DNA of 64,000 bases. It comes from Shigella phage Sf18. Below are positions 60,904-64,000 of the stretch, one piece after another. The position numbers were made by a program, and so were the translations under genes. The notes below the pieces were generated by a model. That model saw only the letters and a list, made by a program, of their open reading frames with translations, searched no databases and was not told where the DNA came from. Positions within the stretch are counted from its first letter, which is position 1. Each line of letters begins with the position of its first letter. Location of the stretch: the sequence record MF158044, one strand, 5' to 3'.

Positions 60904-61306
60904 AATAACCTCTCTCAGCTTTCTCAATTTTATCCAGAAGTTTGATACACTCATTGTTATGGTATGTAGCCTCACTCTGGTGTAACTTCTTCTTCTGCTC
61001 AAGTAGAAATTTATAGTAACCTGATAACTGCTCTCTTGTCAAGGGGTGTTCTGAAATAATATCAAGAGAACTTTCACCTAAAGGTGAGAACATACCATTG
61101 TCATCCACGTTGTACAGTTCACCAGCAAAGAAGCCTTTGTTAGCCATTGTGATAGGTGAGCGTTCAATGACCTCAACAACAAACTTTGTGAGCACCTTGT
61201 CACCCATAGTAATCAACTTGGTTCCTGCAATACGAACCTTCATACCACTTCTTGTGTACTTGAAAGTACCATTATCATTCGCCCAAAGCTTCATAGTTTT
61301 CTCCAT
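60896..61306 (-). CDS. hypothetical protein
   Basis: 136-aa ORF immediately downstream of the terminator after the endolysin. Confidence 0.4.
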   Translation of the reverse strand: MEKTMKLWANDNGTFKYTRSGMKVRIAGTKLITMGDKVLTKFVVEVIERSPITMANKGFFAGELYNVDDNGMFSPLGESSLDIISEHPLTREQLSGYYKFLLEQKKKLHQSEATYHNNECIKLLDKIEKAERGYYE

Positions 61307-61312
61307 AGAAAT

Positions 61313-61335
61313 AAAAAAGGCTCCCGAAGGAGCCT
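61313..61335 (-). terminator. intrinsic terminator after endolysin gene
   Basis: On - strand AGGCTCC-TTCG-GGAGCCT hairpin followed by TTTTTT. Confidence 0.5.
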
Positions 61336-61344
61336 CTTAATCTA

Positions 61345-61815
61345 CTATTTTGGATAAACAGCGTCAAGGTAAATCTTGGCTTCCAAACTACGTCTATTTT
61401 GTAGACCCTTGGAAGTTACTTTTTGACCATTCACTGTAATCTTGTTCCACCACTGCATAGCTTCTGCACAACCAGCTTTGTTACCAGCATTGTGACGCTT
61501 GATAAAAGTTGAATCCTGCATAGCACCGATGCCAATGTTGTAAGTCTCTACAACAAGTGCGTCAAATTCGTTCTGCGTAGTTGGAACCTTAATTGCTCTG
61601 TTTACTGCACCTACATAGTTCTCAACATCTGCAAGGAGATATTGTTCAGCTTGCTCGGCAGTAATCTTCATCCCCATCGTAACAGGTCTTCCGTTGATAC
61701 GAATTGTACCATAACCAATTGTAGGGATTCCAGCAGAGTCTTTATAGGCTTCTAAACGAAGCCCTTCAAAGAACTTAATGGCTTCTAAGCCTTTACTTGA
61801 GAGTTGCATTATCAA
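61345..61815 (-). CDS. endolysin, T4 e-type lysozyme (GH24)
   Basis: 156 aa; catalytic-region signature FEGLRLEAYKDSAGIPTIGYG and downstream blocks typical of phage lysozymes. Confidence 0.7.
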   Translation of the reverse strand: MIMQLSSKGLEAIKFFEGLRLEAYKDSAGIPTIGYGTIRINGRPVTMGMKITAEQAEQYLLADVENYVGAVNRAIKVPTTQNEFDALVVETYNIGIGAMQDSTFIKRHNAGNKAGCAEAMQWWNKITVNGQKVTSKGLQNRRSLEAKIYLDAVYPK

Positions 61816-62696
61816 CCTCCTACTGCGTTAATAACCACCTTGGCAGATTGGGATGTGATTGAGCCACCTACACCAGTTACAACACAAGAGTAAGTACCTT
61901 CATCATCAGCTTTAGAAGTCGGTGTCTTTTCATATGTTGCAGATGTTGCTGAAGGGATATCTACATCATCTTTCTTCCACTGATAACCAGTTGCACCAGT
62001 GGCTACGATGCTAAGGGTGAGTGTATCTCCCTCTGTAATCTCTTGGTTAGTAGGTTGCTGTGTAATCACAGGCAGTGCATTCACAGTTACTGTGGCAGCG
62101 TTGGAATTAACACTTGAGCCACCTTCACCAGAAACTACACAGGTGTATGCGCCAGCATCAGTAGGGACTACGCCATTCTTAGTATATGTTGCAGAGGTTG
62201 CTCCAGAGATGTTTGATGCACCTTTCTTCCACTGATAACCAGTTGCACCAGTAGCAACAACTGAAAGTGTAAGTGTTCCACCCTCGTTAACAGTTTGGTC
62301 AGTTGGCTGCTGTGTAATAACTGGAGGTGTGATTGCATCCTTCAACTTTGCATTAAGCATGGAGAAAGGTTTAACCCTTGCCAACCATTCACAATAAACT
62401 GTGTCAACATCCTTCCCATTGATGATTGCATACTGCAAGTCCATGAAGAAGTCAGCAGTCCTCATCTGAGCACCAACTGAATATAAAAGTTCTTCACTAA
62501 ATGGAACTGTGTAGTCTGGTGTGTAATTGAAGTCAGTAACTTCTGGAATATCAGACTCAGGCCACGGTGAGCTATATGTCAGAGGCAGAACGGCCTCTTG
62601 ATACTTTCTGAAGTCGTATCTTTTGCCAGCTTTAACATTCGCTACAAAGTCTTTAACGAACTCTTTAAAATCTGGATATGTCTTTGCTTTAATCAT
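61812..62696 (-). CDS. Ig-like domain protein (possible virion decoration protein)
   Basis: 294 aa; N-terminal domain paralogous to the upstream ORF; two C-terminal Ig-like repeats (PVITQQPT...YQWKK...G.Y.C.V). Confidence 0.45.
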   Translation of the reverse strand: MIKAKTYPDFKEFVKDFVANVKAGKRYDFRKYQEAVLPLTYSSPWPESDIPEVTDFNYTPDYTVPFSEELLYSVGAQMRTADFFMDLQYAIINGKDVDTVYCEWLARVKPFSMLNAKLKDAITPPVITQQPTDQTVNEGGTLTLSVVATGATGYQWKKGASNISGATSATYTKNGVVPTDAGAYTCVVSGEGGSSVNSNAATVTVNALPVITQQPTNQEITEGDTLTLSIVATGATGYQWKKDDVDIPSATSATYEKTPTSKADDEGTYSCVVTGVGGSITSQSAKVVINAVGG

Positions 62697-63061
62697 TTCT
62701 TAGCCTCTAATCTTGCATTTAGTCTAAAATAACCTTTGTGCTGCGGTGAAACATCACCTACAACAACTCCGTCAATCTTATAGCCTTTACCCATCACATA
62801 TTGAATATCCATCAAAAATGTACCAAGACCAACGATATGAAACATTGGGTAAAGAAGTTCTTCAGTATCTGGTAGAGGAATTTTAGGTGTGTATTCGGAA
62901 TATGTTTCGGTAGGGTTGATATCCTTCTCAGGCCATTTGCTATCACGCCATGTTAAGGGTGTCGGAAGTACATCATCAAGATTATACCTGTCACCTTCTT
63001 GAACACTTTGGACATAAGATTGTAGGAAGCAATAAAAGTCTTTTCCACTCTTTGCCTTCAT
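62693..63061 (-). CDS. hypothetical protein, paralogue of N-terminal domain of 61812-62696
   Basis: 122 aa; aligns by eye with the neighbour's N-terminus (KAK..DF...VQ.V..G.RY...LP..L...WPE.DI...YTP...P..EELLY...F.MD.QY). Confidence 0.4.
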   Translation of the reverse strand: MKAKSGKDFYCFLQSYVQSVQEGDRYNLDDVLPTPLTWRDSKWPEKDINPTETYSEYTPKIPLPDTEELLYPMFHIVGLGTFLMDIQYVMGKGYKIDGVVVGDVSPQHKGYFRLNARLEAKK

Positions 63062-63075
63062 TATCTATCCTTAAC

Positions 63076-63097
63076 AAATAAAAGGGGCTTTCGCCCC
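63076..63097 (-). terminator. intrinsic terminator
   Basis: On - strand GGGGC-GAAA-GCCCC hairpin followed by T-run, between 63105 gene end and 63061 gene start. Confidence 0.45.
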
Positions 63098-63104
63098 ATA
63101 AAAC

Positions 63105-63695
63105 TTAAGCCATAGTCTTAAGCATGTTTTTAAGTTTTTTGAGATTCATTGTCTCATCCAACTTAAATCCAAATCCATTGACGTACTCAATGAAATCAGA
63201 TTTCTTACTCAGAGATAACGCATAGTTCATGTCGAAGTCATTACTTGGAGTGGACTCTGGAGAGGTGTTCACATCGAAAGAAATCTCTGTGGAAGTATCT
63301 TCAGACTCTCTGAGGTTATCAATCACAACACATGTGTAGTTTGCTGGAGAGAATGATGTTGAACCAGCTACATAACTGTATTTAGCATTGTGGATAAGAT
63401 TTGAGAATACTTTGAAGAATGTTTCTGAATCATGACACACCAGTTTAAATTCACTATTAGCACCTAAAGACATAAGTGAATATGGGCTTTCACCATCAAT
63501 GTTATAATCTGGGTTCATTGACTGAACAGTAACACGCATCAAGTTATTTGCAATTGTTTTCTGTTTAAATGAATTAGGTACGTAGTGCATACCTCTTTCA
63601 CATTGATTGACCAACTCTTTAAGAAGGTCATCAGAATATGGTGAAGTGATTGATACAGACCCATCACCATTATAATTAAAACTCACGTTTAACAT
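63105..63695 (-). CDS. hypothetical protein
   Basis: 196-aa ORF. Confidence 0.4.
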   Translation of the reverse strand: MLNVSFNYNGDGSVSITSPYSDDLLKELVNQCERGMHYVPNSFKQKTIANNLMRVTVQSMNPDYNIDGESPYSLMSLGANSEFKLVCHDSETFFKVFSNLIHNAKYSYVAGSTSFSPANYTCVVIDNLRESEDTSTEISFDVNTSPESTPSNDFDMNYALSLSKKSDFIEYVNGFGFKLDETMNLKKLKNMLKTMA

Positions 63696-63922
63696 TTATC
63701 AGTTCTCCTACGATTGATAATCTTGCTGCAATAGAGAAATGAAGCAAATTCACTGGAAGAAACCATTAGAACCTGTTCACTAGATTGAGCTATTGCTCTG
63801 AAATACATACCAGTTAGTGCATCATAGTGCTTATTCTTTCCAATTGAAGTGATATACCCATGACTCTTTGCAGTTTGGTATAAATCAATAATATCTGTGA
63901 TTTCTAGTTGGGAGCTACACAT
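63689..63922 (-). CDS. hypothetical protein
   Basis: 77-aa ORF. Confidence 0.35.
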   Translation of the reverse strand: MCSSQLEITDIIDLYQTAKSHGYITSIGKNKHYDALTGMYFRAIAQSSEQVLMVSSSEFASFLYCSKIINRRRTDKC

Positions 63923-64000
63923 AAATAATCCTCTTGTCGTCTATAATTTTGAAAGTATAGGTACAAACCAATTTCAGAGGATTTGTAATAGAGTAATTCT

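What the first reader, a model, noticed from the sequence alone, without database searches (positions are those of the whole stretch)
61812..63061. Tandem paralogues upstream of the endolysin, one carrying two Ig-like repeats
ORF 62693-63061 and the N-terminal 120 residues of ORF 61812-62696 are clearly homologous; the latter adds two I-set-like Ig repeats with the YQWKK...G.Y.C.V pattern. Ig-like domains in phages are typically on virion surface proteins (Hoc-like decoration), yet this gene is translationally coupled to the endolysin gene. It could be a decoration protein or a cell-wall-binding module.
Basis: partly seen in the sequence, partly recalled or inferred. Interest (0 to 1): 0.35.

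Follow-up and report, generated by a model that had tools for sequence, protein, structure and literature searches.

The report
Known phage head decoration gene, duplicated
The Ig-repeat gene is the already published Hoc-like capsid decoration protein of Felix O1-like phages (this very phage, Sf17, is named in the paper), and the only unreported detail is that the small gene before it is a stripped-down copy of its capsid-binding domain whose role is unknown.

Summary
ORF 62693-63061 (122 aa) and residues 1-120 of ORF 61812-62696 (294 aa) are homologous (37% identity, E=6e-17), and the longer protein adds two I-set Ig repeats that are 60% identical to each other. The window is Shigella phage Sf17 (Mooglevirus, Ounavirinae).

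The 294-aa protein is the orthologue of Sf14 gp20 and Bas63 Hex-Dec. These are solved by cryo-EM (PDB 9C2D, 9C3A, 9NCF). [quoted passage not shown] Residues 1-119 are identical to Sf14 gp20. Homologues were detected in Sf14 and Felix O1 virions. The Sf14 paper names Sf17 as a two-Ig variant. So it is a decoration protein, not a tail protein or an endolysin wall-binding module.

The 122-aa gene is a stand-alone copy of the capsid-binding domain, which neither cryo-EM paper mentions:
- It is under purifying selection (dN/dS 0.13) and is late-expressed in Felix O1.
- It is joined to the decoration gene by an ATGA overlap.
- It lacks the capsid-contact Arg79 (invariant Gly instead).
- It is missing from two virion proteome lists.
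- One natural lineage has deleted it.

Its function is unresolved. Overall interest is low.

The parts
61812..62696 (-). Hoc-like hexamer-centre capsid decoration protein (294 aa). Orthologue of Sf14 gp20, Bas63 Hex-Dec and Felix O1 Gp36. Annotated 'tail protein' FDJ00_gp018 in Sf17.
   Evidence: PDB 9c2d_S E=4.6e-185 with residues 1-119 identical; 9ncf_S E=9.9e-258. phrog_3995 full length, 1e-166. Identified as a decoration protein in the papers.
62337..62696 (-). Capsid-binding domain (CapBD), residues 1-120 of the decoration protein. Contains Arg79 and Arg107, which salt-bridge MCP Asp221 in Sf14.
   Evidence: Identical to the modelled part of 9c2d_S. Contacts as stated in PMC11821841. dN/dS 0.04.
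62079..62327 (-). Ig-like repeat 1 (residues 124-206).
   Evidence: Pfam Ig_3, Ig_2 and I-set; 60% identical to repeat 2.
61827..62078 (-). Ig-like repeat 2 (residues 207-290).
   Evidence: Pfam I-set 209-283. Relatives carry 1-4 such repeats.
62693..63061 (-). Stand-alone paralogue of the capsid-binding domain (122 aa). Equivalent to Felix O1 ORF37, VpaE1_040 and Sf17 FDJ00_gp019. PHROG 4463, 'unknown function'.
   Evidence: E=6e-17 to the CapBD. Hits 9c2d_S at 1.7e-12. Fold match. dN/dS 0.13. Conserved position in 25 of 25 complete related loci.
62693..62696 (-). ATGA stop/start overlap between the paralogue and the decoration gene.
   Evidence: Read directly. The ATGA overlap is conserved in all 25 complete related loci; in L008 and L009 the paralogue ORF reads through it to a stop 4 nt further on, giving an 8-nt overlap.
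61345..61809 (-). GH24 endolysin (154 aa from the ATG at 61809). Its GGAGG Shine-Dalgarno sequence (61816-61820) lies inside the end of the decoration gene.
   Evidence: Pfam Phage_lysozyme 1.8e-39. Annotation. Junction sequence.
63074..63097 (-). Terminator-like hairpin GGGGCgaaaGCCCC plus T-run, just upstream of the paralogue. Positional equivalent of Felix O1 terminator t38.
   Evidence: Felix O1 Table 2.
61305..61338 (-). Terminator-like hairpin (10-bp stem) plus T-run, just after the endolysin. Equivalent of Felix O1 terminator t35.
   Evidence: Felix O1 Table 2.

Best explanation
The 294-aa gene encodes the Hoc-like 'Hex-Dec' capsid decoration protein of Felix O1-like myoviruses. Its N-terminal 120-residue domain plugs as a monomer into the centre of each of the 60 edge (quasi-3-fold) hexamers of the T=9 head. 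Arg79 and Arg107 bind the ring of Asp221 residues of the major capsid protein. Two flexible Ig-like domains project outward, presumably for weak adhesion to surfaces or for particle aggregation, as proposed for T4 Hoc. That adhesion step is inferred; the rest is shown for orthologues.

The 122-aa gene directly upstream is a tandem duplicate of the capsid-binding domain alone. It has the same fold but has lost the Arg79 contact, and it carries its own invariant surface block (LLYPMFHIVGLGTFLMDIQY). It is made late, together with the decoration protein, through an ATGA-coupled reading frame. It is not a stable stoichiometric virion component.

My best guess (inferred, about 40%) is that it is a dispensable late accessory factor acting during head assembly. 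It could transiently occupy or compete for hexamer centres, or escort the decoration protein.

The neighbouring endolysin is a conserved neighbour in gene order, not a functional partner.
For: Identity of the phage and the protein:
- The window is 99.9% identical to phage Sf17.
- Residues 1-119 are identical to Sf14 gp20, chain S of 9C2D.
- The Sf14 paper places gp20 at quasi-3-fold hexamer centres, detects it by MS, names the Arg79/Arg107 to Asp221 contacts, and lists Sf17 as a two-Ig variant.
- The Bas63 paper independently finds the same protein with an N-terminal CapBD.
- Felix O1 Gp36 was found in virions with 14 peptides and 44% coverage.

The paralogue:
- Homology and fold.
- Arg79 aligns to an invariant Gly and Arg107 to Gln, His or Arg. 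This holds even in a lineage only 48% identical.
- dN/dS is 0.13, against 0.04 for the CapBD.
- Gene order and the ATGA overlap are conserved in 25 of 25 complete loci and in a divergent 87-kb metagenomic contig.
- Felix O1 ORF36 and ORF37 both peak at 60 min, with the morphogenesis genes.
- Gp37 is absent from the Felix O1 virion list, which includes proteins of 9.7-13.7 kDa.
- VpaE1_040 is not among the VpaE1 virion proteins, by the authors' own comparison.
- Neither cryo-EM study reports unassigned hexamer density.
- Phages mio and REP7 carry an internal deletion of the paralogue but an intact decoration gene.
Against: - No experiment addresses the paralogue directly.
- Absence from MS lists is weak negative evidence. 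Felix O1 used a 25% coverage cut-off, the VpaE1 list is in a figure I could not read, and the Sf14 table lists only modelled proteins.
- Icosahedral averaging would smear a monomer sitting on a strict 3-fold axis, so a 20-copy plug could have been overlooked.
- The RT-PCR timing in Felix O1 is end-point and semi-quantitative.
- The AlphaFold model of the paralogue is only moderate (pLDDT 68.5).
- The adhesive role of the Ig domains is by analogy with T4 Hoc and is untested in this family.
Confidence: 0.85

Rival explanations
1. The 122-aa paralogue is itself a second hexamer-centre decoration protein. On this reading it is an Ig-less plug filling the 20 true 3-fold hexamers that Hex-Dec cannot bind, so that the two paralogues together cover all 80 hexamers.
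For: It has the same fold as the CapBD. It is expressed late and is translationally coupled to Hex-Dec. Hex-Dec is excluded from true 3-fold hexamers because Asp221 is displaced from Arg79 and Arg107 there, and the paralogue has replaced exactly those residues. A monomer on a strict 3-fold axis would be blurred by icosahedral averaging.
Against: [quoted passage not shown] The paralogue is not listed in the Felix O1 or VpaE1 virion proteomes, although it yields six good tryptic peptides. A natural lineage has deleted it.
Confidence: 0.15
2. The Ig-repeat protein, or the pair, is a lysis accessory. On this reading it is a cell-wall or peptidoglycan-binding module that works with the adjacent endolysin.
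For: The gene is tightly juxtaposed with the endolysin, whose ribosome-binding site lies inside its 3' end. This adjacency is conserved across the Ounavirinae. The three genes lie between two terminator-like hairpins.
Against: The orthologue is structurally resolved on the capsid and is found in virions. The shared domain contacts the major capsid protein. In Felix O1 the endolysin peaks at 25 min and the pair at 60 min. There are no Pfam cell-wall-binding domains.
Confidence: 0.02
3. The protein is a tail protein, as annotated in GenBank, RefSeq and PHROG 3995.
For: The annotation 'tail protein' or 'major tail protein' is widespread. Ig-like domains also occur on the major tail proteins of other phages, for example phrog_158 and phrog_853.
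Against: The label goes back to the 2010 Felix O1 paper, which calls Gp36 a (major) tail protein, remarks that gene 36 lies well apart from the morphogenesis genes, and in the passages read gives no direct localisation. Two cryo-EM studies place the protein on capsid hexamers and assign the tail tube and sheath to other genes.
Confidence: 0.01
4. The paralogue is a decaying duplicate with no function of its own.
For: It is dispensable in the mio/REP7/Z31 lineage. It evolves about six times faster at non-synonymous sites than the CapBD. It was not detected in virions.
Against: dN/dS is 0.13 with dS about 1. It has an intact ORF of constant length in about 230 genomes and in a lineage only 48% identical. 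It has a 27-residue nearly invariant block.
Confidence: 0.05

Closest known systems
Sf14 gp20 (PDB 9C2D/9C3A chain S) and Bas63 Hex-Dec (PDB 9NCF chain S), the hexamer-centre decoration protein of Ounavirinae
   Same: The 294-aa protein is the orthologue. Its capsid-binding domain is 100% identical to Sf14 gp20 over residues 1-119. It has the same N-terminal CapBD plus C-terminal Ig array, and the same genomic position next to the endolysin and far from the structural module.
   Different: It has two Ig repeats, against three in Sf14 and four in Bas63. This variation is already described in both papers, and Sf17 is named. The upstream 122-aa copy has the CapBD fold only, has no Ig domains, lacks Arg79, and is not discussed in either paper.
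[quoted passage not shown]
   Same: It works alike: a monomer at hexamer centres, a string of Ig-like domains projecting from a small capsid-binding domain, non-essential, with a proposed adhesion or aggregation role.
   Different: It is not homologous in the binding domain. The domain order is reversed (the Hoc capsid-binding domain is C-terminal), the CapBD topology is distinct and larger, and it has a pseudo-C2 two-lobe arrangement absent from Hoc. T4 has no stand-alone copy of its binding domain that I know of (own knowledge).
T5 pb10 decoration protein (PDB 5LXK, 8ZVI)
   Same: [quoted passage not shown] The Ig region matches at E about 1e-9.
   Different: The similarity is confined to the Ig domain. 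It has a single Ig domain and a different capsid-binding domain.
CapBD fusions of other Ounavirinae (Erwinia phage M7 gp008, Pectobacterium phage Wc4-1 QFP94026)
   Same: They have the same CapBD family and the same position directly upstream of the endolysin.
   Different: The display module is Big_2-like or another type instead of I-set Ig. No stand-alone paralogue is present, so the duplication is specific to the Felixounavirus/Mooglevirus/Suspvirus branch.

Membership tests
Ounavirinae Hex-Dec / Sf14 gp20 decoration protein (for ORF 61812-62696) | N-terminal capsid-binding domain of about 120 residues, homologous to the modelled part of 9C2D or 9NCF chain S | tested here: met
   Residues 1-119 identical to 9c2d_S; E=4.6e-185 and 9.9e-258
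Ounavirinae Hex-Dec / Sf14 gp20 decoration protein (for ORF 61812-62696) | Capsid-contact residues Arg79 and Arg107 | tested here: met
   Both are present on direct reading of the translation. They are invariant in 24 related loci ('cap invariant' line).
Ounavirinae Hex-Dec / Sf14 gp20 decoration protein (for ORF 61812-62696) | C-terminal array of 1-4 Ig-like domains | tested here: met
   Two Ig_3/I-set stretches; the repeats are 60% identical
Ounavirinae Hex-Dec / Sf14 gp20 decoration protein (for ORF 61812-62696) | Physically present at the centres of quasi-3-fold hexamers of the T=9 virion | not testable with these tools
   Shown for Sf14 and Bas63 by cryo-EM and for Sf14 and Felix O1 by MS. 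Inferred for Sf17 from the identical binding domain.
Ounavirinae Hex-Dec / Sf14 gp20 decoration protein (for the 122-aa paralogue 62693-63061) | CapBD fold and sequence homology | tested here: met
   E=6e-17; 1.7e-12 to 9c2d_S; Foldseek probability 1.00, TM 0.60
Ounavirinae Hex-Dec / Sf14 gp20 decoration protein (for the 122-aa paralogue 62693-63061) | Capsid-contact residues Arg79 and Arg107 | tested here: not met
   Arg79 aligns to an invariant Gly78. Arg107 aligns to Gln, with Arg or His in a few members.
Ounavirinae Hex-Dec / Sf14 gp20 decoration protein (for the 122-aa paralogue 62693-63061) | Ig-like display domains | tested here: not met
   The protein ends at residue 122 and has no Pfam domain
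Ounavirinae Hex-Dec / Sf14 gp20 decoration protein (for the 122-aa paralogue 62693-63061) | Virion component | tested here: inconclusive
   It is not in the Felix O1 list and, by inference, not in the VpaE1 list.
T4 Hoc family | Homologous C-terminal capsid-binding domain with N-terminal Ig domains | tested here: not met
   The domain order is reversed. PHROG 'Hoc-like' hits cover only the Ig region, residues 119-288. The Bas63 paper reports a distinct topology.
Endolysin cell-wall-binding modules (LysM, SH3b, PG_binding and similar) | A recognisable wall-binding domain | tested here: not met
   No such Pfam hit for either protein at E up to 1

The most novel reading that the evidence does not exclude
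The stand-alone capsid-binding-domain paralogue would be a previously unrecognised head-assembly or head-surface factor. Either it is a cryptic third decoration protein filling the 20 true 3-fold hexamers, invisible after icosahedral averaging, or it is a late non-virion regulator that controls where and when the Hoc-like protein loads onto the T=9 capsid. It would then be a natural example of a decoration protein duplicating and specialising for the two non-equivalent hexamer types of a T=9 shell.
Probability: 0.3. Interest if true: 0.5.

Novelty: already known. Interest (0 to 1): 0.2.

Why it matters
It matters little for the main feature. The decoration protein, its structure, its odd genomic location and its variable number of Ig repeats are all published, and this phage is named explicitly.

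Two points are of practical use:
- The widespread database label 'tail protein' is wrong for both genes. UniRef transfers it to the 122-aa protein as well.
- About 230 Felix O1-like genomes carry an unremarked stand-alone copy of the capsid-binding domain. These phages are used for Salmonella, E. coli and Shigella biocontrol and for phage display. A small domain that may dock at hexamer centres, or may regulate docking, could be relevant to capsid engineering and to how T=9 shells tell their two hexamer classes apart.

Tried and rejected
1. Programmed frameshift fusing the paralogue to the decoration protein. The decoration gene is in the -1 frame at the ATGA junction, but there is no X_XXY_YYZ slippery site. 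The upstream bases vary (AGAAATGA or ATAAATGA), and in two Suspvirus loci (L008, L009) the paralogue ORF reads through to a later stop, making the overlap 8 nt. This is ordinary termination-reinitiation coupling.

2. A second tandem pair in the Erwinia-type lineage. The 205-aa gene upstream of P0057 in L036 shows no similarity to it (E=3.6).

3. Distant stand-alone copies elsewhere. An exhaustive profile search of 1.84 billion representatives found only 12 clusters, all Ounavirinae-like. The only other stand-alone copy, P0055, is in the same syntenic position.

4. A sigma-70 promoter between the upstream hairpin and the paralogue. None was found, and promoter-like sites in the region are fewer than in shuffled sequence (4 against 9.7). 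How the cassette is transcribed remains open.

5. A DNA-level tandem repeat for the Ig units. TRF finds none, so the repeats have diverged at the DNA level.

6. NCBIfam has no model for either protein.

7. Sources I could not use. The J Virol 2018 Sf14 paper (PMC5874400) was not held. The Sf14 supplement has no MS table. The VpaE1 protein list is in a figure that is not held.

8. Modelling a complex of the paralogue with an MCP hexamer. This is not possible with the single-chain predictor and its size limit.

Full report
**Observation**

The small protein aligns to residues 2-119 of the large one at 37% identity, E=6e-17. Each protein also matches the other's PHROG family.

The large protein carries two Ig-superfamily stretches: Ig_3 at 1.5e-19 and I-set at 9.4e-14. 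These are 60% identical to each other, E=5e-31.

One detail needs correcting. The paralogue and the Ig gene overlap by ATGA. The Ig gene and the endolysin do not overlap in this phage. The endolysin most likely starts at the ATG at 61809, 2 nt after the stop, with GGAGG embedded in the last codons of the Ig gene. In most Felixounavirus relatives that junction is a TAATG overlap.

**What the window is**

Positions 61000-64000 are 99.9% identical to Shigella phage Sf17 (Mooglevirus, Ounavirinae, a Felix O1-like myovirus). There the two genes are FDJ00_gp018 ('tail protein') and FDJ00_gp019 ('hypothetical protein').

**What the 294-aa protein is**

A search of PDB sequences returns 9c2d_S/9c3a_S (E=4.6e-185) and 9ncf_S (E=9.9e-258). 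Residues 1-119 are identical to the former. These chains are Sf14 gp20 and Bas63 Hex-Dec.

The Sf14 paper (PMC11821841) reports the following:
- Binding uses an N-terminal domain of about 118 residues, whose Arg79 and Arg107 salt-bridge Asp221 of three of the six capsid subunits.
- gp20 was detected by virion MS.
- Phages 'Sf13 and Sf17' have two Ig-like domains instead of three.

The Bas63 paper (PMC12609058) independently describes the same protein. It notes a pseudo-C2 two-lobed capsid-binding domain (CapBD), unresolved Ig domains, 1-4 Ig repeats across the genus, and a gene located more than 10 kb outside the structural module.

The Felix O1 orthologue Gp36 was found in virions with 44% coverage in 2010. 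That paper calls it a tail protein, or major tail protein, and in the passages I read it gives no direct localisation. It is the earliest use of the database label that I found. In the 25 complete related loci, the protein lengths of 210/211, 294/298, 377 and 461 aa reproduce the published 1-4 repeat series.

So the decoration reading is correct and already published. The tail-protein label and the wall-binding idea are wrong.

**What the 122-aa protein is**

It is Felix O1 ORF37, VpaE1_040 and PHROG 4463 ('unknown function'). Neither cryo-EM paper mentions a paralogue, a gp21 or a duplication of the CapBD. I found no later paper on the family.

It is a stand-alone CapBD:
- It matches 9c2d_S at 1.7e-12.
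- Its AlphaFold model (pLDDT 68.5, pTM 0.69) has 9c2d_S and 9ncf_S as its only significant PDB matches.

It is a real gene:
- It is present at 73-100% identity in about 230 of 252 Felix O1-like genomes.
- It always lies immediately upstream of Hex-Dec with the ATGA overlap.
- Its dN/dS is 0.13, against 0.04 for the CapBD, about 0.12-0.13 for Ig1 and 0.08 for the endolysin.

A metagenomic 87-kb contig carries a copy only 48% identical (P0055) in the same order: 195-aa gene, paralogue, Hex-Dec, lysozyme. More distant Ounavirinae (Erwinia phage M7, Pectobacterium phage Wc4-1) have a single CapBD fusion next to the endolysin and no stand-alone copy. The paralogue is therefore an old tandem duplication within one branch of the subfamily.

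The whole CapBD family is tiny: 12 clusters among 1.84 billion representatives.

**How the paralogue differs**

Hex-Dec Arg79 aligns to a Gly that is invariant in the paralogue family. Arg107 aligns to Gln, with Arg or His in a few members. The split at position 79 holds in the divergent P0055/P0056 pair.

The paralogue has its own nearly invariant block, LLYPMFHIVGLGTFLMDIQY. The fold core (F12, G23, Y71, F82, D85, Q87, N115) is shared by the whole family.

**Expression and location**

In Felix O1, RT-PCR shows ORF36 and ORF37 both peaking at 60 min with morphogenesis genes 53, 63, 64, 72, 73, 76 and 77. The endolysin (ORF35) and ORF38 peak at 25 min. Terminators t38 and t35 bracket genes 37-36-35. 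The same two hairpins are present in the window, at 63097-63084 and 61338-61315.

The Felix O1 virion list contains Gp36 but not Gp37, although it includes proteins of 9.7-13.7 kDa. Gp37 would give six tryptic peptides of 11-26 residues.

The VpaE1 paper states that only gp54, gp58 and gp68 were virion proteins not seen in Felix O1. The paralogue is VpaE1_040, so it was not detected there either.

Bas63 reports no density at the other hexamers, and neither study mentions unassigned capsid density.

Phages mio, REP7 and Z31 share one internal deletion of about 226 nt in the paralogue. Mio and REP7 keep an intact 294-aa Hex-Dec, while in Z31 Hex-Dec is also fragmented. The paralogue is thus dispensable.

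**Interpretation**

Shown, for orthologues with an identical binding domain: the 294-aa protein decorates the 60 edge hexamers of the T=9 head.

Inferred: the Ig domains mediate weak adhesion or aggregation, as proposed for T4 Hoc.

For the paralogue, I favour a late, dispensable, non-stoichiometric accessory factor of head assembly or decoration loading, at about 40%. The attractive alternative is that it plugs the 20 true 3-fold hexamers that Hex-Dec cannot bind, having replaced exactly the residues that fail there. I give this about 15%, because two proteomes and two maps do not show it. Icosahedral averaging and the MS thresholds leave room, however. A functionless remnant is unlikely given the selection signal.

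**Comparison and novelty**

The Ig protein meets every sequence-testable criterion of the Hex-Dec/gp20 family. It works like T4 Hoc and T5 pb10 but is not homologous to them in the binding domain.

The paralogue shares the fold but fails three criteria: the contact residues, the display domains and, provisionally, virion presence. I therefore file it as a CapBD-family member but not as a decoration protein.

The main finding is already known. The stand-alone copy is a small, apparently unreported detail. Interest is 0.2.

Noticed in passing
L002 (Shigella phage Z31), L031 (phage mio), L032 (phage REP7); equivalent to window 62693-63061: A sub-lineage of about 20 Felixounavirus genomes shares one internal deletion of about 226 nt in the paralogue. 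The 5' and 3' stubs and the ATGA junction remain. In Z31 the decoration gene is also split into 134-aa and 55-aa ORFs.
   Followed up: yes
window 63074-63097 and 61305-61338 (minus strand): Two terminator-like hairpins bracket the three-gene cassette of paralogue, decoration gene and endolysin, matching Felix O1 terminators t38 and t35. No sigma-70-like promoter lies between the upstream hairpin and the paralogue, so transcription must be by read-through or from an unrecognised promoter.
   Followed up: partly
window 61807-61815: Mechanical ORF calling gives the endolysin a TTG start at 61815 that overlaps the decoration gene. The annotated ATG at 61809, with a well-spaced GGAGG, is the likelier start.
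   Followed up: yes
GenBank GU169904 'Staphylococcus phage SA1' (hit H34): A record labelled as a 147-kb Staphylococcus phage contains a Felix O1-like decoration and paralogue locus (75% protein identity). The record is probably chimeric or contaminated.
   Followed up: no
P0023 and P0049: Two copies of the paralogue are deposited as 'Escherichia coli' proteins on contigs of 87-88 kb. These are almost certainly complete Felix O1-like phage genomes filed under the host name.
   Followed up: no
MG589384 Enterobacter phage phi63_307 (hit H144): The CapBD plus Big_2 decoration homologue is annotated there as 'cgkA: kappa-carrageenase'. In other Kolesnikvirus records it is labelled 'tail protein' or 'structural protein'. 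These annotations are inconsistent and probably wrong.
   Followed up: no
window 63105-63695 (minus strand; 196 aa, phrog_4034, unknown function): A gene of about 195-206 aa immediately precedes the decoration locus in every lineage examined, including Erwinia phage M7, Pectobacterium Wc4-1 and the metagenomic contig L034. In Felix O1 it (ORF38) peaks at 25 min. Homology across these lineages was not tested.
   Followed up: no
P0059 (153 aa): One divergent CapBD family member carries, in place of Ig or Big_2 domains, a 30-residue Lys/Ser/Glu-rich low-complexity tail. This may be a different kind of display or adhesion module.
   Followed up: no
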